From: Chloroflexota bacterium
GTDB lineage: Bacteria > Chloroflexota > Dehalococcoidia > Bin125
Length of the DNA stretch: 64,000 nt
Assembly (NCBI GenBank): GCA_026707145.1
Contig: JAPOXK010000010.1
Span: forward strand, 10,849 to 74,848
Direction: 5' to 3'
Position numbers and translations under genes: made by a program. Below are positions 1,485 to 8,998 of the stretch, piece after piece (position 1 is the stretch's first letter; every line of letters starts with the position of its first letter). The notes beneath the pieces are model-generated. The model was not told the origin of the DNA. It did no database searches and saw nothing but the letters and a program-made list of their open reading frames with translations.

Positions 1485-2327
1485 CTAGCTTGGCGTCCAA
1501 GTCACGAGCACGATGGTATCTGCCGGCCCTTTGAGCGCGTAGCCGTCGTCGCGCGCGACAAGGTGATCAACGATTATCTGTCGCAGCAAACGCTCTTTAG
1601 CCGACCCGGGACGCAGCCACAGTCGCCGGCGGGCGTCGTTGATCGCCGCTTCCCACGAGTCGAAGCCCCAGGCACGTTCGGTGATCTTTCGCAGCGCCGG
1701 GCGACGGCCGCGCGCTTCCAATAGGCGCAGGAACTCAGGCAGCGCCGGCAACGGCGCGTAGGGCGATCCGTGGACGGCCTTCCACAAGCCCGCGAACGCT
1801 GCTCCCGGTGCGCGCTCGAGCAGGAGCGCGACGCAAAGCCGTTTCGCCGCTGCCTCGAACGCGTCGAGGAAAGGACCGATCGCCTCAATGTCGTAGCCGA
1901 CATGGGTGATCAACGCGACATCCGCTTGCAGCGCGCGCTGGAGGGGCCAGCGTTCGCCGATCAGATTGAGGTTCTCGATGCCGTGTTGGGCGCGCACCTC
2001 CTCCAACACCGTCCGCATCGCCTCACTGGGTTCAACGGCGATGACTCGCTGGACGTGGCGGGCCAGCGCCAGCGCGAAGCGGCCGCCTCCCGCACCGACG
2101 TCCAGCCAGACCTCTTGGGGGTGCGCCAGCGCCAGCAGGGCGTTAAGGCACACATCGTCCCTACGGGTGGGATCGGCACGGAATCTCTCGGCGATGGGTG
2201 CGTAAAAGTCGTTGCCGTCGTCCCGCTCGGTGAGGCGCTCCACCTGTGCGTTGTTGGCGTGCACGCGGGCTCTCCAGTCGGCGAGGCAGAGCTGGTAGTC
2301 CGGCATGCTTTTGCTCCCGCTGGTCAT
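1485..2327 (-). CDS. Class I SAM-dependent methyltransferase
   Basis: LDVGAGGG motif I, AVEPS motif II; start may be ATG at 2306. Confidence 0.85.
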   Translation of the reverse strand: MTSGSKSMPDYQLCLADWRARVHANNAQVERLTERDDGNDFYAPIAERFRADPTRRDDVCLNALLALAHPQEVWLDVGAGGGRFALALARHVQRVIAVEPSEAMRTVLEEVRAQHGIENLNLIGERWPLQRALQADVALITHVGYDIEAIGPFLDAFEAAAKRLCVALLLERAPGAAFAGLWKAVHGSPYAPLPALPEFLRLLEARGRRPALRKITERAWGFDSWEAAINDARRRLWLRPGSAKERLLRQIIVDHLVARDDGYALKGPADTIVLVTWTPS

Positions 2328-2433
2328 TCGTCCGTCCTGCGACAGCCGGCCAGGCGAACGGACATGCGCGACCTCATTGACGCGACCGCGCTACGGTAGT
2401 GGGGCGGCTCGGCTACAATTGCTGGAGCATCTT

Positions 2434-3348
2434 ATGCATCCCGACTTGCATCTCGACAAGCCTCCGCCGCTGCGCACGCCCGCCATGATCCTGGCTTGGG
2501 GCGGCTGGAGCGACGCGGGCAGTGCCGCCACCCATGGTCTCCGGACGCTGGCCAACGCCATCGACGCGCAGCCATGCGGGTCCATTGACCCGGAGAACTA
2601 CTACGACTTTTCCGTGACGCGCCCGTTCGCCCGCTACCGCAATGGGGAGCGGGAGATCGTCTGGCCCAGCACGGACTTCTACTACGGCGCGCCGGCCGAG
2701 GCCGATCGCGACTTGGGCATCGCCATCGGTTCCGAACCGGCCAATCGCTGGCGAAGCTACATGGAGGCGCTGTTTGACGGGGTGGAAGCTTTCGGCACCG
2801 AGCTCGTCATTTCACTGGCGGCGGTCGCCGCGCCCGTTCCCCATACGCGGCCCGTGGTGGTCTGGGGTGCCGCCAACACGGCTGAGCTGGCGGAGAAACA
2901 TAACATGCACCCCCCCGCCTACGAGGGACCGACCGGCATCGTCGGCGTCTTCCACGACTACTGCCGCCGCAAGAACGTCGGTGCGATCAGCCTCTGGGCG
3001 AGCGTGCCCCACTATCTCGGCGACACGACGAATCCCGTCGGCTCACTGGCGTTGCTCGAGCGTCTGCAGAAGGTCCTCGATCTGTCCCTCCCGCTCGCCG
3101 GGCTGCGCTCGGAGATCTCGCTGTTCCAGGAACAGGTCGATCGGGCGATCGCTCGTGACGACGACCTCGCCTCCTATGTGCGCCGCCTTGAATCGTCCGG
3201 CAGCCAGCTCGCCTCCTTCGAACCGCTTGCGTCGCGTTCGGAGGAGTTGCCACCGGCCGAGTCGCTGATCGAGGACTTGGAGCAGTTCCTGCGCGGCACC
3301 CAGCAAGATGGCTCCTCACCGCAAGAAGGCGAGCCTCGCGGTGGCTGA
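2434..3348 (+). CDS. PAC2 (proteasome assembly chaperone) family protein
   Basis: GWSDAGSAA, IDPENYYDF..RP, PHTRP, YEGPTGIVG, LWASVPHY motifs; ATG 2434 with GGAG RBS and TACAAT upstream. Confidence 0.88.
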   Translation: MHPDLHLDKPPPLRTPAMILAWGGWSDAGSAATHGLRTLANAIDAQPCGSIDPENYYDFSVTRPFARYRNGEREIVWPSTDFYYGAPAEADRDLGIAIGSEPANRWRSYMEALFDGVEAFGTELVISLAAVAAPVPHTRPVVVWGAANTAELAEKHNMHPPAYEGPTGIVGVFHDYCRRKNVGAISLWASVPHYLGDTTNPVGSLALLERLQKVLDLSLPLAGLRSEISLFQEQVDRAIARDDDLASYVRRLESSGSQLASFEPLASRSEELPPAESLIEDLEQFLRGTQQDGSSPQEGEPRGG

Positions 3349-3841
3349 CGTTCCCAGCGCCGACGACCGCGAGGAGGCTTCCGAGAAAAGCCTCAATCGG
3401 ATGTGGAAATTCGTCCGTTCCTACACGGCGAAGAGCGGGACGTTCCTGCACCCCCAGCCCGAGATCACCGAGGCGCTGGTGATCGGCCTCGCCAAGCATG
3501 TGGATGAGTTCGGACGGCCCCTCTGCCCCTGCAACTTTTACGAGGATAAGGCGGAGGAGGTTAAGTCCTCGACCTGGATCTGCCCGTGCGACGAGATGCA
3601 GAAGTGGAAGTATTGTCACTGACTGCTCTTTTGCGATTCGGAAGGTCTTCCGATCACCGAGTACCTCCCCGAAGATCACGAAGGCCGTGAGATCTATGGG
3701 GTGATTCGAGACCCTACGCCCGACAAGGGGCGGGCGATCGGGAAGCTGCAGGAGAAGACGGGCCGCACGATTCAGAAAAAGAAGCGGGGAGAGGAAAAGA
3801 AGCGAGGAGATAGCGAGGGTGTCGAGGGCGCGGGCGACTAA
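3341..3841 (+). CDS. Ferredoxin-thioredoxin reductase catalytic subunit, probable selenoprotein (CPC...CPC...CHU)
   Basis: LCPC, ICPC and YCH-TGA(3620-3622)-LLF; the frame stays open to TAA 3839-3841; SECIS-like hairpin follows the TGA; GTG start at 3341 overlaps the PAC2 stop. Confidence 0.85.
3635..3655 (+). promoter_or_regulatory. Bacterial SECIS element
   Basis: GAT-T(bulge)-CGGAA-GGTC-TTCCG-ATC stem-loop starting 13 nt after the in-frame TGA; bulged U and AGGUCU apex as in the E. coli fdhF SECIS. Confidence 0.8.
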
Positions 3842-3909
3842 ACGGCCGTGCGCGGTCGGTCGATTGCGCTGAGGGTGCTTCGCTTGCTTGCTCGGGGTTG
3901 CGCCTCGCC

Positions 3910-3927
3910 ATTACGCTGAGCCGTAAT
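3910..3927. promoter_or_regulatory. Inverted repeat overlapping putative rpsN promoter
   Basis: ATTACG-N6-CGTAAT overlapping a TACGCT -10-like hexamer; TTGCTC 18 nt upstream. Confidence 0.35.
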
Positions 3928-3976
3928 CAGTCACGCGCCGGACGAGCATCGGGCCGCGCGGCATCGGGATGGAGCT

Positions 3977-4282
3977 ATGGCGAAGAAAAGCCAGGTCGCC
4001 CGCGACGCGAAGCGCCGCGCCATGTACGACAAGCACAGCGCGCGCCGCGCCGAACTCAAGGCCAAGCTCAAGGCGTCCTGGGACGCCCCCATGACTCGCT
4101 CGGAGATTCAGGCCGAGCTGCAGTCGATGCCGCGCAACAGTAGCCCCACCCGGCTCAAGAACCGCTGCGCCGTCACGGGACGATCGCGGGGCTACATGCG
4201 CAAGTTCGGGCTCTCCCGCATCAGCTTCCGGGAGATGGCTTCCGAAGGTCTCTTGCCGGGCATTCGCAAGGCCTCCTGGTAG
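3977..4282 (+). CDS. rpsN: 30S ribosomal protein S14, zinc-independent (C-) long form
   Basis: MAKKS...[45 protein letters not shown]; 101 aa, lacks the CxxC pairs. Confidence 0.96.
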
Positions 4283-4958: not shown

Positions 4959-6197
4959 GTGGTTGCTTCAATCCTCAGGCGATCGCCTTCCCTTCTCATC
5001 GTTATCGCTTTGCTGACTTTCGCCCTTGTTGCCGCATGCGGCGACGGCGACGATAGCTCCAGTGCTCCGCAACCATCGGTGAGTGAGCAACCGGCGGCCG
5101 AGGCCGCTCCCCAGGAGACGGTGTCCACTCCAGAGCCGCCGGCGTCTGAGGAGGAGATGCCTGCTGCGGAGGAGATGGCTCCCGAGGAGCAGATGGTGGC
5201 TGAGGAAGACATGTCTGCTGAGGAAGATATGTCCACCCAGCAGACCGCCTCCGAAGCCGACATGGACGATCCGCTCACGCTGACGGTCTACTCCGGCCGC
5301 GGGGAATCGCTCGTAGGGCCGCTGCTCGATCAATTCGAGACCGATACCGGCGTCGACGTGCGGGTCCGCTACGGCGGCACCGCGGAGCTCGCGGCGGCTA
5401 TCCTGGAAGAGGGTGACCGCTCGCCCGCAGACGTATTCTTTGCTCAGGATGCCGGCGCCCTCGGGGCGCTGCAGGATATGGGCCGCTTCACGGTACTCGA
5501 CGATGAGTTTCTCGACCGGGTCGACCCAGTCTTCCGCTCGGCCTCGGGTGGTTGGGTGGGCGTGTCCGGCCGCGCGCGCGTCGTCGTGTACTCCACTCAG
5601 CTGAGTGCGGAGGAGCTTCCTGCCTCCATCTTCGATCTGATTGAGCCGGAGTGGAGTGGCCGCGTGGGCTGGGCCCCTACCAACGGCTCCTTCCAAGCCT
5701 TCGTCACGGCGATGCGCCAGGTCTACGGTGACGCGGCGACCGCCGGCTGGCTCAGCGCCATGATCGATAACGGCGTGCAGGAATATCCTAAGAACACGCC
5801 CATCGTGCAGGCGGTGGGCGACGGTGAGATCGATGTTGGGCTCGTCAACCATTACTACCTCTGGCGCTTCATCAGCGAAGATCCCGATTTTCCCGCCGCC
5901 AACCACTACACCGACGCGGGCGAGCCGGGCGCTCTCGTGAACATCGCCGGCGTCGGCCTCCTGGGTTCGTCGACTAATCAGGAGGCCGCGCGCGTGTTCG
6001 TCGACTATTTGCTGAGTGAGACGGCGCAACAGTACTTCGCGACGGAGACGCATGAGTACCCGCTGATCACAGGTGTCGATCCCAACCCCGGCATCCCCGG
6101 TCTCGACACCCTCGACCCGCCTTCGCTCGCGCTCACCTCGCTCGCTGATCTGGAAGGGACGCTCGATCTCTTAAGGGAAGTCGGCGCGCTGCCTTAG
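4959..6197 (+). CDS. Fe3+ ABC transporter substrate-binding lipoprotein (FutA/FbpA-like)
   Basis: Lipobox LVAAC; LTVYSGR, SPADVF, GWAPTNGSFQ, VNHYY motifs; AGGAGG RBS. Confidence 0.92.
   Translation: MVASILRRSPSLLIVIALLTFALVAACGDGDDSSSAPQPSVSEQPAAEAAPQETVSTPEPPASEEEMPAAEEMAPEEQMVAEEDMSAEEDMSTQQTASEADMDDPLTLTVYSGRGESLVGPLLDQFETDTGVDVRVRYGGTAELAAAILEEGDRSPADVFFAQDAGALGALQDMGRFTVLDDEFLDRVDPVFRSASGGWVGVSGRARVVVYSTQLSAEELPASIFDLIEPEWSGRVGWAPTNGSFQAFVTAMRQVYGDAATAGWLSAMIDNGVQEYPKNTPIVQAVGDGEIDVGLVNHYYLWRFISEDPDFPAANHYTDAGEPGALVNIAGVGLLGSSTNQEAARVFVDYLLSETAQQYFATETHEYPLITGVDPNPGIPGLDTLDPPSLALTSLADLEGTLDLLREVGALP
5148..5235 (+). repeat. Degenerate 18-bp tandem repeat encoding a Glu/Met-rich linker
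   Basis: EEEMPA-AEEMAP-EEQMVA-EEDMSA-EEDMS; GAGGAGATG/GAGGAAGAYATG units. Confidence 0.7.
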
Positions 6198-6216
6198 GGC
6201 AGCGCCTCCCCGCTCC

Positions 6217-7824
6217 ATGGCCGGAGTCGCTGCTCGCTCAACGGTTCTCGCTCGCCGTAGGCGGCTCCCAGGCCCAGCATGGCCGCTGGCCCTCGTTGTG
6301 GCAGCGGCCATGCTGCTTCCCCTCATCTATCTCATCATCCGGGCGCTTGATGCCGACGCGGCCGCCTGGAGCGCCTTGGGTGACGCGTCCTCCCTGCGCC
6401 TTGTCCTGCGTACGGCCCTTCTCGCCCTCGCCGTCGCCGGCGCCTCACTGGTGCTGGCGCTTCCAATGGCTTGGCTCACGGTTCGGACCGATCTCCCGCT
6501 CCGTCGGCTCTGGAGCGTGCTTGCGATCGTCCCTCTCGTCGTCCCCAGCTACGTTGGCGCGGTTGCGTTCATCGCCGCGTTCGGTCCGCGCGGCACACTG
6601 CAGGAGATCCTCTCACCGCTGGGAGTCGATACCGTCCCGCAGATTTACGGCTTTGCGGGGGCCTTCCTGGCTCTCACGCTGTTTAGCTACCCCTACCTCC
6701 TCCTGGTTCTGCGGGCGGGCTTGCGCGGGATCGATCCGGCGCTCGAGGACGCCTCCCGCAGCCTGGGGATGGGGTCCTGGCGGACGTTTTTGCGCGTGAC
6801 CGTCCCGCAGCTGCGGGTGCCCATCACGGCGGGGTCCCTGCTTGTGGCGCTCTATGTCGTATCGGACTTCGGTGCCGTGTCGCTTTTACGGACCGATACC
6901 CTCACCCGCGCCATCTTCATCCAATACCAGACCTCGTTCGACCGGGCGGCGGCGGCCGTGCTCGGGCTTGAACTCGTCGGGTTGGTCACGCTCATTTTGG
7001 TGCTGGAGTGGCTGTACCGCAGACGCGGTCGCTTCCACGGCGGCGGCCCGGGCACACCCGGGCCGCCGCGGCTCCTGCGGCTGGGCCGTTGGCGTTGGCC
7101 GGCGCTCGCCTTTCTCGCCGCGATCGTGCTGGTCGCTTTGGGCGTGCCCACGGGTGTCCTCCTGCATTGGCTCGTGCGGGGACTGCAGGCTGGTGAACCG
7201 TTCGCGGGCGCATGGGGCGCCGCGCTCAACTCCGCCTGGGTCTCTGCGGTGGCGGGGCTGGTGGCGGTGGTAGTGGCGATTCCCGTCGCGATCGTCGCCG
7301 TGCGCAAGCCGTCGCCGCTCGCGGCGATAGTGGAGCGCGTCGGCTATACGGGCTTTGCCCTCCCCGGCATCGTGGTCGCGCTGTCGCTGGTGTTCTTCGG
7401 CTTGCGGGTCGTACCGGCCGTGTACCAGAGCTGGGTGCTGCTGGTTTTCGCCTATCTCGTGCTCTTTTTCCCGCTGGCGTTGGGAGGCATCCGGACTTCG
7501 TTGGTCCAGATCCGCCCCGGGATCGAAGAGGCCGCCCGCAGCTTGGGCGGATCGCCGGGGCGCGTGCTGGCCACGATCACGATTCCCCTGCTCATCCCTG
7601 GACTCGTGAGCGGCTTTGCACTGGTTTTCCTCACCGCTATGAAAGAATTGCCCGCGACGCTCCTTCTCGCTCCGATCGGATTTGATACCCTCGCCACTGA
7701 AGTATGGTCTGCCTCTTCCGAAGCCTTCTTCGCCCGTGCTGCGGCGCCCGCACTCATTCTGATCCTCGTGGCGGCGCTGCCGCTGGCGCTGTTGGTCGCC
7801 CGTGAACACCGAGTTGAACGCTGA
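6217..7824 (+). CDS. Fe3+ ABC transporter permease (FbpB-like)
   Basis: Two ABC TM modules with EAA loops (LEDASRSLG, IEEAARSLG). Confidence 0.92.
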   Translation: MAGVAARSTVLARRRRLPGPAWPLALVVAAAMLLPLIYLIIRALDADAAAWSALGDASSLRLVLRTALLALAVAGASLVLALPMAWLTVRTDLPLRRLWSVLAIVPLVVPSYVGAVAFIAAFGPRGTLQEILSPLGVDTVPQIYGFAGAFLALTLFSYPYLLLVLRAGLRGIDPALEDASRSLGMGSWRTFLRVTVPQLRVPITAGSLLVALYVVSDFGAVSLLRTDTLTRAIFIQYQTSFDRAAAAVLGLELVGLVTLILVLEWLYRRRGRFHGGGPGTPGPPRLLRLGRWRWPALAFLAAIVLVALGVPTGVLLHWLVRGLQAGEPFAGAWGAALNSAWVSAVAGLVAVVVAIPVAIVAVRKPSPLAAIVERVGYTGFALPGIVVALSLVFFGLRVVPAVYQSWVLLVFAYLVLFFPLALGGIRTSLVQIRPGIEEAARSLGGSPGRVLATITIPLLIPGLVSGFALVFLTAMKELPATLLLAPIGFDTLATEVWSASSEAFFARAAAPALILILVAALPLALLVAREHRVER

Positions 7825-8998
7825 GGCGCCGGCGGCGTTGGAGTGTGCGGGCCTGCGGAAGAGCTTCGCGCAGGGTTCGGCTCGCGAGGTGCGCGCCGTT
7901 GACGATCTGTCCCTGACCGTCCGCTCCGGTGAAACCGTCGCTCTCCTTGGTCCCAGTGGCTGCGGCAAGACCACGACCCTGCGGCTCATCGCCGGCTTCG
8001 AGTGGCCCGACAGGGGGCGCGTGGTAATCGCGGGACGTGAGGTGGTCGGCGCGGGCGTCTTCCTGCCCCCCGAGCGGCGCCGGGTGGGAATGGTCTTTCA
8101 GGACTATGCGCTCTTCCCCCACCTCACTGTGGCGGACAATGTCGCCTACGGCTTGGAGCATTCCACCGTCGGGCGCTGGACTCCTGCCCTGCGGCGTCCC
8201 CTCGCCGCGCTTCGCGGGCGCTTTCGCTTTGGTGGCGCTGCGACGACGGCGATCGACGCGCGTGTTCGGGAAGCGCTTGAGCTTGTGGCGCTGCCGCACG
8301 TCGCCGGGCGCTTCCCGCACGAGCTTTCCGGCGGTGAGGCGCAGCGTGTAGCACTTGCGCGGGCGCTGGCGCCAGGGCCCGCGCTGCTGTTGCTGGACGA
8401 ACCCTTCTCGAACCTGGATGCGCCGCTCCGCGCCAGCGTTCGGGGCGAGGTGCGTGAGATCCTGCGCCGCGCCTCCACCGCGTCCATCTTCGTCACCCAC
8501 GATCAAGAGGAGGCGTTCGCCATCGCCGATAGGGTGGCCGTGCAGCTGCGCGGCCGGATCGAGCAAGTGGGCTCGCCCTCCGAGATTTACCATCGTCCTG
8601 CGACGCGCGGCGTCGCCGCTTTCGTTGGAGAGGCCGACTTCCTTCCCGGCACCTTAACGTCCGACGGCGTCGAGACCGAGATCGGCCGCATCCCGGTCGC
8701 GGGCGATTCCGGCGCGGCTGCCGGATCCGTTGATGTGATGCTGCGCCCCGAACGCGTTCAGCTCGCGGCGGCGGACGCTACGGGGCCGGGTCATGGTCGG
8801 GCGGTCGTCGAGCGACGCGAATTTTACGGTCACGATCAGCTCGTGACGTTGCGTCTCGATTCTGGAGCACGTATCCGCGCGCGCCTCGGTCCCGATGCCG
8901 ATTTTCCTCCGGGGCGCCGCGCTAGCGTCTTCGCGACGGGCGCGGGGATTGTCTACCCGCCGCTCTCCGGCGCTCAGGGACCGGCGCTGGGAGAGTGA
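7802..8998 (+). CDS. Fe3+ ABC transporter ATP-binding protein (FbpC-like)
   Basis: GPSGCGKT, LSGGE, LLLDEP, VTHDQEEA, C-terminal TOBE-like domain. Confidence 0.92.
   Translation: MNTELNAEAPAALECAGLRKSFAQGSAREVRAVDDLSLTVRSGETVALLGPSGCGKTTTLRLIAGFEWPDRGRVVIAGREVVGAGVFLPPERRRVGMVFQDYALFPHLTVADNVAYGLEHSTVGRWTPALRRPLAALRGRFRFGGAATTAIDARVREALELVALPHVAGRFPHELSGGEAQRVALARALAPGPALLLLDEPFSNLDAPLRASVRGEVREILRRASTASIFVTHDQEEAFAIADRVAVQLRGRIEQVGSPSEIYHRPATRGVAAFVGEADFLPGTLTSDGVETEIGRIPVAGDSGAAAGSVDVMLRPERVQLAAADATGPGHGRAVVERREFYGHDQLVTLRLDSGARIRARLGPDADFPPGRRASVFATGAGIVYPPLSGAQGPALGE

What the first reader, a model, noticed from the sequence alone, without database searches (positions are those of the whole stretch)
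3341..3841. Hidden selenoprotein: ferredoxin-thioredoxin reductase with Sec replacing the CHC catalytic Cys, plus its own SECIS
Seen: the ORF track stops at ...MQKWKYCH (3622), exactly where the FTR catalytic subunit motif series CPC-CPC-CHC needs its last Cys. The codon is TGA (3620-3622). The frame continues without a stop as LLFCDSEGLPITEYLPEDHEGREIYGVIRDPTPDKGRAIGKL...GAGD to TAA at 3841. Starting 13 nt downstream is GAT-T-CGGAA-GGTC-TTCCG-ATC, a stem with a bulged U and an AGGUCU apex like the E. coli fdhF SECIS bound by SelB. Established: in plant/cyanobacterial FTR the last Cys of CHC forms the active-site disulfide and contacts the [4Fe-4S] cluster. Inference: this is a Sec-FTR with a selenenylsulfide next to the Fe-S cluster and a C-terminal extension that may replace the variable subunit, which is absent here. 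Standard pipelines would mis-annotate it as a truncated gene. Sec-FTR-like sequences have been predicted from metagenomes, but as far as I recall they are essentially uncharacterised.
Basis: partly seen in the sequence, partly recalled or inferred. Interest (0 to 1): 0.9.

Follow-up and report, generated by a model that had tools for sequence, protein, structure and literature searches.

The report
Selenocysteine form of ferredoxin-thioredoxin reductase
This gene encodes an iron-sulfur disulfide reductase in which one active-site cysteine is written as a UGA "stop" codon read as selenocysteine. Gene callers therefore cut it short, but this kind of selenoprotein was already predicted from ocean metagenomes in 2008.

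Summary
The ORF from 3308 (or 3341) ends at TGA 3620-3622, right after ...KWKYCH. The frame stays open to TAA 3841, and a bulged hairpin with an AGGUCU apex lies at 3635-3655.

- **Position of the TGA:** it aligns with the second Cys of the CHC motif, residue 87 of chain 1dj7_A. Cys homologues carry C there.
- **Translation past the TGA:** homology and a coding-type substitution pattern continue for about 38 codons downstream.
- **Conservation:** all 62 genomes of the same family whose match spans the site keep TGA. So do contigs from 4 metagenome runs of 4 studies.
- **Hairpin:** 56 of 63 Sec forms share an invariant 12-nt hairpin core with register-switch covariation. 20 of 21 Cys forms lack it.
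- **Machinery:** the genome has selA, selB, a Sec-containing selD and tRNA-Sec.

This is not a new kind. Sec-FTR was predicted in 2008 and is listed in reviews from 2022 and 2026. The window's protein has one Sec and falls far below NCBI's model for the double-Sec FtrB family.

The C-terminal region is shared with Cys homologues. The idea that it replaces the variable subunit was not tested.

New details here: at least three Cys/Sec changes on the tree, one place on it per SECIS type, and one Cys form that keeps an intact "fossil" SECIS.

The parts
3308..3841 (+). Gene for a single-subunit FTR-catalytic-like selenoprotein: 177 aa from ATG 3308, or 166 aa from GTG 3341, the start that fits relatives' 'MADV' N-termini. 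Stop is TAA 3839-3841.
   Evidence: Pfam PF02943 scores 86.8 bits (cut-off 22) when read through.
3524..3532 (+). First CPC motif (C73-P74-C75, both TGC). C75 matches residue 57 of chain 1dj7_A. It lies 30 residues before U105, the same spacing as the Arabidopsis Cys87-Cys117 disulfide pair.
   Evidence: (ungapped alignment, query n = chain n-18).
3581..3589 (+). Second CPC motif (C92-P93-C94). It matches residues 74 and 76 of 1dj7_A.
3614..3622 (+). C103-H104-U105: the CHC motif with its last Cys written as TGA (3620-3622), read as selenocysteine.
3635..3655 (+). SECIS hairpin: GAT / bulged T 3638 / CGGAA / loop GGTC 3644-3647 / TTCCG / ATC. The loop starts 21 nt after the TGA.
   Evidence: fold; 12-nt core invariant in 56 of 63 Sec forms; absent in 20 of 21 Cys forms; same AGGTCT apex in E. 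coli fdhF; synonymous sites frozen only in Sec forms.
3623..3736 (+). Translated region after the Sec codon (residues 106-143), conserved in both Sec and Cys forms. It is confidently modelled but lies outside the part that superposes on plant/cyanobacterial FTRc.
   Evidence: conservation; 10-residue block means of pLDDT 91-98 for residues 21-150; 88-89 aligned columns with FTRc chains; differences per site at codon positions 1/2/3 = 0.186/0.145/0.463 over codons +12..+38.
3737..3838 (+). Lys/Glu/Arg/Gly-rich C-terminal tail. It varies in length and sequence among relatives and is modelled with low confidence.
   Evidence: block-mean pLDDT 56-80 for residues 151-177.
2305..3348 (+). Context: upstream PAC2-family gene. 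Its TGA stop (3346-3348) overlaps the FTR start region and shows that TGA is an ordinary stop in this genome.
   Evidence: The same neighbour is seen in relatives (e.g. L026, L037).
3977..4282 (+). Context: downstream ribosomal protein S14 gene, in conserved synteny in relatives.
   Evidence: L024, L027, L035, L038, L046.

Best explanation
The gene at 3308/3341-3841 encodes a single-subunit [4Fe-4S] disulfide reductase of the ferredoxin:thioredoxin-reductase catalytic-chain family (Pfam FeThRed_B). UGA 3620-3622 is decoded as selenocysteine.

**Decoding (inferred).** SelB carrying Sec-tRNA(Sec) binds the hairpin at 3635-3655 (GGUC loop, bulged U, same apex as E. coli fdhF) while the ribosome sits on the UGA. 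Sec is inserted and translation continues for another 72 codons.

**Protein.** C73, C92, C94 and C103 match the residues that I recall as the four cluster ligands of cyanobacterial FTR. C75 and U105 match its redox-active pair, so the oxidised enzyme should carry a C75-U105 selenenylsulfide instead of a disulfide. By analogy with FTR (inferred), one electron from ferredoxin cleaves this bond. C75 then attacks the substrate disulfide while the selenolate of U105 is held by an iron of the cluster. A second electron releases the product. Sec therefore sits at the cluster-side position, not at the substrate-attacking one.

**Shown:** position of the TGA, coding constraint after it, a hairpin specific to Sec forms, the Sec machinery, fold similarity.
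**Inferred:** Se incorporation, cluster binding, electron donor and substrate.
For: 1. **Family and site.**
- Pfam PF02943 scores 86.8 bits read through and 73.4 bits truncated.
- phmmer against PDB gives 7bzk_A at 4e-24 and 1dj7_A at 8.5e-22, ungapped. C73/C75/C92/C94/C103/U105 fall on chain residues 55/57/74/76/85/87.
- The AlphaFold model (mean pLDDT 87.6) superposes on FTRc chains at rmsd 0.9-1.1 over 86-89 columns for 8 of the 10 best-ranked chains, TMt 0.75-0.78.

2. **Cys in homologues.** All 16 aligned Cys-form proteins (52-68% identical) have C at the column, and conservation runs to residue 143.

3. **The TGA is conserved.**
- 29 of 30 related loci carry TGA; the remaining one has TGC.
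- All 65 genomes of the same family have the gene. All 62 whose match spans the site have exactly one TGA in the 123-aa core. The other 3 matches are partial and do not reach the site.
- In a class-wide sample of 401 genomes, 103 have a match. By my reading of the table, 60 have the TGA form only, 42 the Cys form only, and 1 has both.

4. **Translation continues past the TGA.** Over codons +12..+38 in 62 Sec rows, pairwise differences per site at codon positions 1/2/3 are 0.186/0.145/0.463. In 21 Cys rows they are 0.120/0.098/0.523.

5. **SECIS.**
- 56 of 63 Sec forms have the invariant core GGAAGGTCTTCC at +21..+32.
- The base at +33 is G when +20 is C, and C when +19 is G. There are no exceptions among the 56.
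- L087 and L092 change U18-A34 to C18-G34.
- 6 Sec forms have a different 7-bp hairpin at the same place, and 1 has a shifted one.
- 20 of 21 Cys forms have no such hairpin and vary freely at the Gly and Leu codons. Mean MFE is -7.5 (Sec) against -3.4 (Cys) kcal/mol.
- E. coli fdhF has the same AGGTCT apex and a bulged T.

6. **Machinery in the same genome.** selA 507 bits, selB 333.7 bits, selD 361.4 bits with its own in-frame TGA in '...CGGUASK...', and tRNA-Sec at 71 bits, which ARAGORN calls tRNA-SeC (tca).

7. **Not an assembly error.** Contigs from 4 runs of 4 studies cover 3620-3622 with no difference listed there, and none anywhere between 3575 and 3711.

8. **TGA is otherwise a stop here.** The PAC2 gene ends at TGA 3346-3348.
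Against: - There is no direct evidence of selenium incorporation or of expression.
- The hairpin is small. The 61 nt after the TGA fold no better than shuffled sequence (z = -0.12), and RNAfold's MFE for that longer stretch chose a different pairing.
- No Rfam family matches. The only hit up to E = 10 in 3400-3900 is a chance lncRNA match at 12.3 bits.
- The related genomes are kin, so the counts overstate independent support. The tree needs only 4 Sec/Cys changes.
- Function is inferred from plant and cyanobacterial FTR at 41-45% identity. Neither the electron donor nor the substrate is known, and gene neighbours (PAC2, S14, an ABC transporter) give no clue.
- The roles of residues 57 and 87 in Synechocystis FTR are recalled. 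They are only partly backed by a passage on the Arabidopsis Cys87-Cys117 pair.
Confidence: 0.93

Rival explanations
1. The TGA is a real stop. The gene makes a 104-aa protein lacking the last Cys, or is a pseudogene, and the downstream frame is open by chance in GC-rich DNA.
For: Table-11 gene calling gives exactly this product. The protein collection holds the 104-aa form (P0036). High-GC genomes have many long open frames: one search found 8 in-frame TGA-plus-hairpin configurations, 7 of which look like noise.
Against: The downstream 38 codons are conserved at the protein level in Sec and Cys forms. They show a coding pattern of substitutions. The truncated product would lack one half of the redox pair. 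The TGA is kept in all 62 family genomes that span the site, and a hairpin specific to Sec forms follows it.
Confidence: 0.03
2. The UGA is read through, but not as Sec. Candidates are Cys inserted by the Sec pathway when selenium is scarce, near-cognate Trp or Cys read-through, or a mixture of full-length and terminated product.
For: Sequence cannot tell which residue is inserted. From recall, bacterial Sec insertion is often inefficient and termination competes with it.
Against: The complete Sec machinery is present, including a Sec-containing SelD. The hairpin has the fdhF-type apex. TGA serves as a normal stop in the neighbouring gene. A Cys codon would be one mutation away, and one lineage has taken that step (L100), so keeping TGA elsewhere implies a benefit.
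Confidence: 0.03
3. Sequencing or assembly error: the true codon is TGC or TGT.
For: The window comes from a 28-contig draft genome that is 92.6% complete.
Against: Contigs from 4 runs of 4 other studies show no difference at 3620-3622. 62 of 62 family genomes, and 34 further loci from other families of the class, have TGA at this site.
Confidence: 0.005

Closest known systems
Predicted Sec-containing ferredoxin-thioredoxin reductase family (Zhang & Gladyshev 2008, PMC2398784; listed with motif 'CxU' in the reviews PMC9312934 of 2022 and PMC13188914 of 2026)
   Same: An FTR catalytic-subunit homologue with Sec at a redox-active Cys, the CxU motif, and a predicted bacterial SECIS after the UGA. 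It was found in marine metagenomes and is known by prediction only (passages read).
   Different: The 2008 set held 2 Sec sequences, one of them with two Sec. The figure and supplements could not be seen, so I cannot say whether the other sequence belongs to this clade. Here the form has one Sec. It is fixed across a whole family (62 of 62) and common in its class, with three SECIS types.
NCBIfam NF041072, 'FtrB family double-selenoprotein'
   Same: The same superfamily, and Sec at the CHC position.
   Different: P0001 scores 41 bits against a cut-off of 160 (37 bits on the genome). The window has Cys (TGC) at the first redox position, so only one Sec. It is not a member of that equivalog.
Plant/cyanobacterial FTR catalytic subunit (PDB 1dj7, 2puk, 7bzk, 7c3f)
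   Same: The CPC-CPC-CH(C/U) spacing is identical (ungapped alignment). The core fold superposes at rmsd about 1.0 over 88-89 columns, with 41-45% identity.
   Different: Sec replaces residue 87. No variable subunit was found (PF02941: no match in G000, which is 92.6% complete). The conserved C-terminal region is longer (residues about 110-143) and is followed by a charged tail. The host is a non-photosynthetic bacterium.
Ferredoxin:disulfide reductase (FDR) of Methanosarcina acetivorans (PDB 4tpu) and the Grx-FDR fusion of Desulfotalea (7pwe)
   Same: Single-gene FTRc-like Fe-S disulfide reductases of non-phototrophs. The phmmer match to 4tpu_A covers query residues 25-142, which includes part of the C-terminal region (1.5e-8). 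Foldseek gives E = 5.5e-5.
   Different: Identity is only 20-22%. The window protein has no rubredoxin or glutaredoxin domain, and those enzymes are all-Cys.
E. coli fdhF SECIS
   Same: A GGUC tetraloop closed by A-U (the AGGUCU apex), a bulged U on the 5' side, and the same reading frame with GGU as a Gly codon.
   Different: The loop starts 21 nt after the UGA here and 18 nt after it in fdhF. There are 5 bp between bulge and loop here against 4 in fdhF. Most relatives have a bulged A or C instead of U.

Membership tests
FTR catalytic chain family (Pfam PF02943, FeThRed_B) | Profile match above the gathering score | tested here: met
   86.8 bits against a cut-off of 22, profile positions 2-89 of 106.
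FTR catalytic chain family (Pfam PF02943, FeThRed_B) | Six Cys in CPC...CPC...CHC with canonical spacing | tested here: met
   C73, C75, C92, C94, C103 and U105 align without gaps to residues 55, 57, 74, 76, 85 and 87 of 1dj7_A. The last is Sec.
FTR catalytic chain family (Pfam PF02943, FeThRed_B) | FTRc fold | tested here: met
   Predicted model, mean pLDDT 87.6. TMt is 0.75-0.78 to the FTRc chains. For 8 of the 10 best-ranked chains rmsd is 0.9-1.1 over 86-89 columns. This is a prediction, not a solved structure.
Canonical heterodimeric FTR of oxygenic phototrophs | Variable subunit (PF02941, FeThRed_A) present | tested here: not met
   No match in G000, which is 92.6% complete. The control search hit Synechococcus.
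Canonical heterodimeric FTR of oxygenic phototrophs | Ferredoxin-dependent reduction of thioredoxin | not testable with these tools
   Needs an enzyme assay.
Bacterial selenoprotein gene | In-frame UGA aligned with Cys in homologues, with homology continuing after it | tested here: met
Bacterial selenoprotein gene | SECIS stem-loop shortly downstream of the UGA, conserved in Sec forms | tested here: met
   Hairpin at 3635-3655. The core is invariant in 56 of 63 Sec forms with covariation, and absent in 20 of 21 Cys forms. bSECISearch itself was not available.
Bacterial selenoprotein gene | selA, selB, selD and tRNA-Sec in the genome | tested here: met
   All are above the curated cut-offs. ARAGORN calls a tRNA-SeC with anticodon tca.
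Bacterial selenoprotein gene | Selenium incorporated at the UGA | not testable with these tools
   Needs 75Se labelling or mass spectrometry.
NCBIfam NF041072, FtrB family double-selenoprotein | Score above the equivalog cut-off, and two Sec | tested here: not met
   41 bits against 160. There is a single TGA, and C75 is TGC.
Methanosarcina-type FDR (4tpu) | FTRc-like domain fused to a C-terminal rubredoxin domain | tested here: not met
   Pfam finds FeThRed_B as the only domain. Read from the sequence, there is no Cys after residue 109. Identity to 4tpu is 22%.

The most novel reading that the evidence does not exclude
Sec was recruited at the cluster-side position of the FTR redox pair, not at the substrate-attacking one. 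This happened up to three separate times within one bacterial class, each time with its own SECIS solution. If so, the selected benefit would be a selenolate that transiently ligates an iron of the [4Fe-4S] cluster (an Se-Fe bond in the one-electron intermediate), or a selenenylsulfide that is easier to cleave. In either case a single-subunit FTR could work without the protective variable subunit in aerobic, sponge-associated bacteria. The extra Cys109 that accompanies the main SECIS type might add a U-x-x-x-C backup pair.
Probability: 0.3. Interest if true: 0.7.

Novelty: new member of a known kind. Interest (0 to 1): 0.45.

Why it matters
**Annotation.** The protein collection searched here holds this window's product only as a 104-aa stub. 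The gene is nevertheless a universal single-copy feature of this family (65 of 65 genomes). NCBI's only selenoprotein model for this superfamily does not catch it (41 bits against a cut-off of 160). A model for the single-Sec clade would fix this.

**Chemistry.** FTR is the textbook case of an Fe-S cluster that cleaves a disulfide. A natural variant with selenium at the cluster-contacting position is a ready-made probe of that mechanism.

**Evolution.** The set offers Sec forms, Cys forms, three SECIS types and a Cys form that still carries an intact SECIS, all within one class. That makes it a compact system for studying how Sec sites arise and are lost.

Tried and rejected
- **Folding the 61 nt after the TGA.** No thermodynamic signal (z = -0.12), and the MFE chose another pairing. 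I dropped thermodynamics as evidence and used comparison instead.
- **Rfam, E-value mode, on 3400-3900.** Only a chance lncRNA match, so there is no support from curated SECIS families.
- **Genome scan for GGTC tetraloops preceded by an in-frame TGA.** It found 635 hairpins, 8 of them with a TGA. Only the FTR one looks like a real protein. The scan is not a usable selenoproteome finder and adds little.
- **SelD's downstream sequence.** It has no GGUC-loop hairpin at the same spacing. By eye I saw a possible 6-bp stem with a CGUGC loop further downstream, but did not test it.
- **Model coordinates.** They are not available in the Python box. I could not measure the U105-C109 distance or see where the C-terminal region sits relative to the variable-subunit site.
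- **RNA runs.** No RNA holder is listed for the stretch, so expression could not be examined.
- **Balsera et al. 2013, Planta.** Not held. Its grouping of bacterial FTRc is known to me only through citing passages.
- **Experimental work on Sec-FTR.** My searches were made, plus 67 and 69 for Dehalococcoidia. They found predictions and lists only. Papers outside the held library, and the supplements (closed), may hold more. That includes whether BSepDB or the 2008 dataset already contains this clade.
- **Earlier taxon guess.** I first took the organism for an actinobacterium, from the PAC2 gene and high GC.
Full report
**1. Observation**

The table-11 ORF 3308..3622 (+) ends ...CDEMQKWKYCH at TGA 3620-3622. 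With TGA read through, the frame stays open to TAA 3839-3841 and gives 177 aa.

The hairpin lies at 3635-3655: GAT / bulged T / CGGAA / GGTC / TTCCG / ATC. Its first base is the 13th nt after the TGA.

The hairpin is not remarkable on thermodynamic grounds alone:
- The 61 nt after the TGA have z = -0.12 against shuffles, and 78 of 200 shuffles fold as well.
- The genome holds 635 GGTC tetraloops with a stem of at least 4 bp.

**2. What the protein is**

- Pfam gives FeThRed_B (PF02943) at 86.8 bits when read through (profile 2-89 of 106) and 73.4 bits when truncated (profile 2-81).
- phmmer against PDB sequences gives Arabidopsis FTRc 7bzk_A at 4e-24 and Synechocystis 1dj7_A at 8.5e-22, both without gaps. 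C73, C75, C92, C94, C103 and U105 fall on chain residues 55, 57, 74, 76, 85 and 87, and H104 falls on residue 86.
- From recall (Dai et al. 2007, which PMC2398784 cites), residues 55, 74, 76 and 85 ligate the [4Fe-4S] cluster, and 57-87 is the redox-active disulfide. Residue 57 attacks thioredoxin and residue 87 contacts the cluster.
- A preprint passage (10.1101/2022.10.17.512470) supports the assignment of roles. In Arabidopsis the nucleophile Cys87 pairs with Cys117, the same 30-residue spacing as C75-U105.
- An AlphaFold2 model built on a 120-row alignment has mean pLDDT 87.6, with 10-residue block means of 91-98 for residues 21-150. It superposes on FTRc chains with TMt 0.75-0.78. For 8 of the 10 best-ranked chains, rmsd is 0.9-1.1 over 86-89 columns at 41-45% identity.

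**3. Is the TGA translated?**

*Cys homologues.* search for homologous proteins returned 2258 proteins at E <= 1e-5. The best are 128-175 aa, 56-71% identical, and named ferredoxin:thioredoxin reductase in Dehalococcoidia or Chloroflexota MAGs. In an alignment of 16 of them, C stands at the U105 column in all 16. Conservation continues through LLF..EGLPITEYLP.DHEGR..YG...DP.P.KGRA to residue 143.

*Relatives.*
- Of 30 loci from 61 related genomes, 29 have TGA at the column and 1 has TGC.
- All 65 genomes of the window's family have the gene. In the 62 whose match spans the column, the 123-aa core contains exactly one TGA. The other 3 matches are partial and stop short of it.
- In an even sample of 401 genomes of the class, 103 have a match at E <= 1e-20. 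By my reading of the table, 60 have the TGA form only (26 in the window's family, and 34 in six other families, one of them the unpublished G296), 42 have the Cys form only, and 1 (G349) has both.

*Fetched loci.* I fetched 54 further loci, leaving G296 out. Every '1 TGA' among those examined sits at the Sec column. In all, 63 loci have TGA and 21 have TGC or TGT.

*Coding signature.* Downstream of the TGA (codons +12..+38), pairwise differences per site at codon positions 1/2/3 are 0.186/0.145/0.463 in 62 Sec rows. In the 21 Cys rows they are 0.120/0.098/0.523. This is the signature of translated sequence.

*TGA is otherwise a stop.* It terminates the PAC2 gene at 3346-3348.

**4. SECIS**

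Numbering takes the U of UGA as +1.
- **Main type:** 56 of 63 Sec forms carry the invariant GGAAGGTCTTCC at +21..+32, that is a 4-bp stem and a GGUC loop.
- **Register-switch covariation:** the base at +33, a synonymous Pro third position, is G in 20 of these rows, and +20 is then always C. It is C in 36 rows, and +19 is then always G. The bulge moves accordingly, with no exception among the 56.
- **Compensatory change:** L087 and L092 change U18-A34 to C18-G34.
- **Second type:** six rows of one family have a different, unbulged 7-bp hairpin with a CGGGC loop at the same place.
- **Third type:** one row (L088) has a hairpin shifted by 6 nt.
- **Cys forms:** 20 of the 21 Cys forms have no comparable hairpin. 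Their Gly and Leu codons vary: GGC 11, GGG 5, GGT 3, GGA 2; CTG 12, CTC 3, TTC 2, TTG 2, CTT 1, GTC 1. In contrast, 56 of 63 Sec forms have GGT CTT.
- **Stability:** the mean MFE of the 25-nt segment is -7.5 kcal/mol in Sec forms and -3.4 in Cys forms.
- **fdhF comparison:** E. coli K-12 fdhF, read from the record, has TGA, then 11 nt, then a 17-nt hairpin with a bulged T and the same AGGTCT apex. The loop starts 18 nt after the UGA there and 21 nt here.
- **Rfam:** nothing matches.

**5. Sec machinery and assembly**

The window's genome has 28 contigs, 2.42 Mb, and is 92.6% complete. It holds:
- selA (507 bits)
- selB (333.7 bits)
- selD (361.4 bits), with one in-frame TGA in '...LCGGUASKYG...'
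- tRNA-Sec (71 bits in Rfam; ARAGORN calls tRNA-SeC, anticodon tca)

The stretch is held by sponge and coral-reef metagenome runs from 10 studies. Contigs from 4 runs of 4 studies other than the possible source cover 3620-3622 with no difference. None is listed between 3575 and 3711, although 14 differences and one 3-nt insertion occur elsewhere in 3300-3900. An assembly error is excluded as far as assemblies can show.

**6. How it most likely works**

*Shown:* a conserved UGA at the cluster-side Cys of the FTR redox pair, a hairpin specific to Sec forms, and complete machinery.

*Inferred:*
- SelB with Sec-tRNA(Sec) binds the hairpin and inserts Sec.
- The oxidised enzyme carries a C75-U105 selenenylsulfide next to the [4Fe-4S] cluster.
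- Electrons from a ferredoxin cleave this bond. C75 attacks a thioredoxin-like disulfide while the selenolate is held at the cluster.

Sec is thus not at the nucleophilic position, which is unusual for thiol-oxidoreductase selenoproteins (my own knowledge).

Donor and substrate are unknown. The neighbours are two SDRs, a methyltransferase, PAC2, S14, and a solute-binding/permease/ATPase ABC set, and they give no hint.

**7. The variable subunit and the C-terminal region**

- PF02941 (the variable subunit) was not found in the genome.
- According to a passage of PMC9025218, the variable subunit is exclusive to oxygenic phototrophs and may protect the cluster. Its absence here is therefore the norm for bacteria.
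- The conserved residues 106-143 are shared by Cys and Sec forms.
- They are confidently modelled.
- They lie outside the 88-89 columns that superpose on FTRc.
- The M. acetivorans FDR (4tpu) matches query residues 25-142 by sequence at 1.5e-8.
- Whether this region takes the place of the variable subunit could not be tested.

**8. Comparison with what is known**

- Zhang & Gladyshev 2008 (PMC2398784; abstract and passages read) reported FTR as one of 7 new selenoprotein families in the GOS data. They found 2 Sec sequences and 10 Cys homologues. One read had Sec at both redox Cys. SECIS elements were predicted.
- Reviews from 2022 and 2026 list 'Ferredoxin-thioredoxin reductase, CxU'. The 2026 review gives 2 Sec and model NF041072.
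- NF041072 is NCBI's 'FtrB family double-selenoprotein'. The window's protein scores 41 bits against a cut-off of 160 and has only one Sec, so it is not a member of that equivalog.
- The BSepDB paper (PMC13326102) lists Dehalococcoidia MAGs with 46-49 selenoprotein genes. Its main text does not mention ferredoxin or FTR.
- My searches found no experimental work on any Sec-FTR. Supplements were closed, so the clade may already be listed there.

**9. What is new here, modestly**

A tree of the 84 rows, with the Sec column masked, needs 4 Sec/Cys changes. Well-supported branches force at least 3. The tree used the quick method on 125 columns, and many forks are unresolved.

The three SECIS types sit at three separate places on it:
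- the main type in one group of 57 rows
- the second type as sister to Cys forms
- L088 alone

One Cys row inside the main group (L100, TGC) keeps the complete hairpin. It is a fresh Sec-to-Cys change with a fossil SECIS.

Without a root, three gains cannot be told from one gain followed by SECIS turnover and losses.

**10. Verdict**

This is a genuine selenoprotein gene with its SECIS, correctly read by the first stage. It is a new, well-populated, single-Sec member of a family already predicted in 2008. Confidence is 0.93, novelty is 'new member of a known kind', and interest is moderate.

Noticed in passing
L100 (G121:C14:34355-34843), outside the window: A Cys form (TGC) nested among Sec forms that still carries the complete main-type hairpin and the LFC motif. 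It looks like a recent Sec-to-Cys replacement with a fossil SECIS.
   Followed up: partly
window 3632-3634 (Cys109 codon TGC): An extra Cys four residues after Sec (U-L-L-F-C) is present in all 56 Sec forms with the main SECIS type and in L100. It is Val in the other 20 Cys forms and in the 7 Sec forms with other SECIS types. Both TGC and TGT are used. Its G at +14 can pair with C at +38, so either an RNA reason or a protein reason is possible.
   Followed up: partly
G000:C19:111419-112351 (-), locus L009 1402..2451: The genome's selenophosphate synthetase SelD is itself a selenoprotein, with an in-frame TGA in '...LCGGUASKYG...'. Its downstream sequence has no GGUC-loop hairpin at the FTR spacing.
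   Followed up: partly
G000:C4:3968-4189, locus L051 about 1500-1760: A second, divergent, all-Cys FTR-like paralogue (CPC...CVC...CFC; PF02943 at 26.2 bits) lies just downstream of a 473-aa ORF that I did not annotate.
   Followed up: no
G349 (loci L098 and L101): One genome of the class holds both a Cys copy and a TGA copy of the gene. The TGA copy lies at a contig end, and contamination or strain mixture was not excluded.
   Followed up: no
window 2305-4282 and 4959-8998: The order PAC2 - Sec-FTR - ribosomal protein S14 recurs in relatives. PAC2's TGA stop overlaps the candidate GTG start at 3341 by 8 nt, which suggests translational coupling. Downstream lies an ABC transporter set: a solute-binding protein, a permease with two matched permease stretches, and an ATPase with a TOBE domain.
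   Followed up: partly
window 3200-4000: Near-identical DNA is held by sponge and coral-reef metagenome runs from 10 studies. The same metagenomes also hold Cys-form homologues from other organisms, seen as loose ends reading H-C-L-L-F-V.
   Followed up: partly
loci L113-L118 (families f16 and f30 of the class): A Cys-form subgroup has an insert between the first CPC motif and the CAC motif ('...G.WPEGLYLP...'). This splits the search match into two pieces.
   Followed up: no
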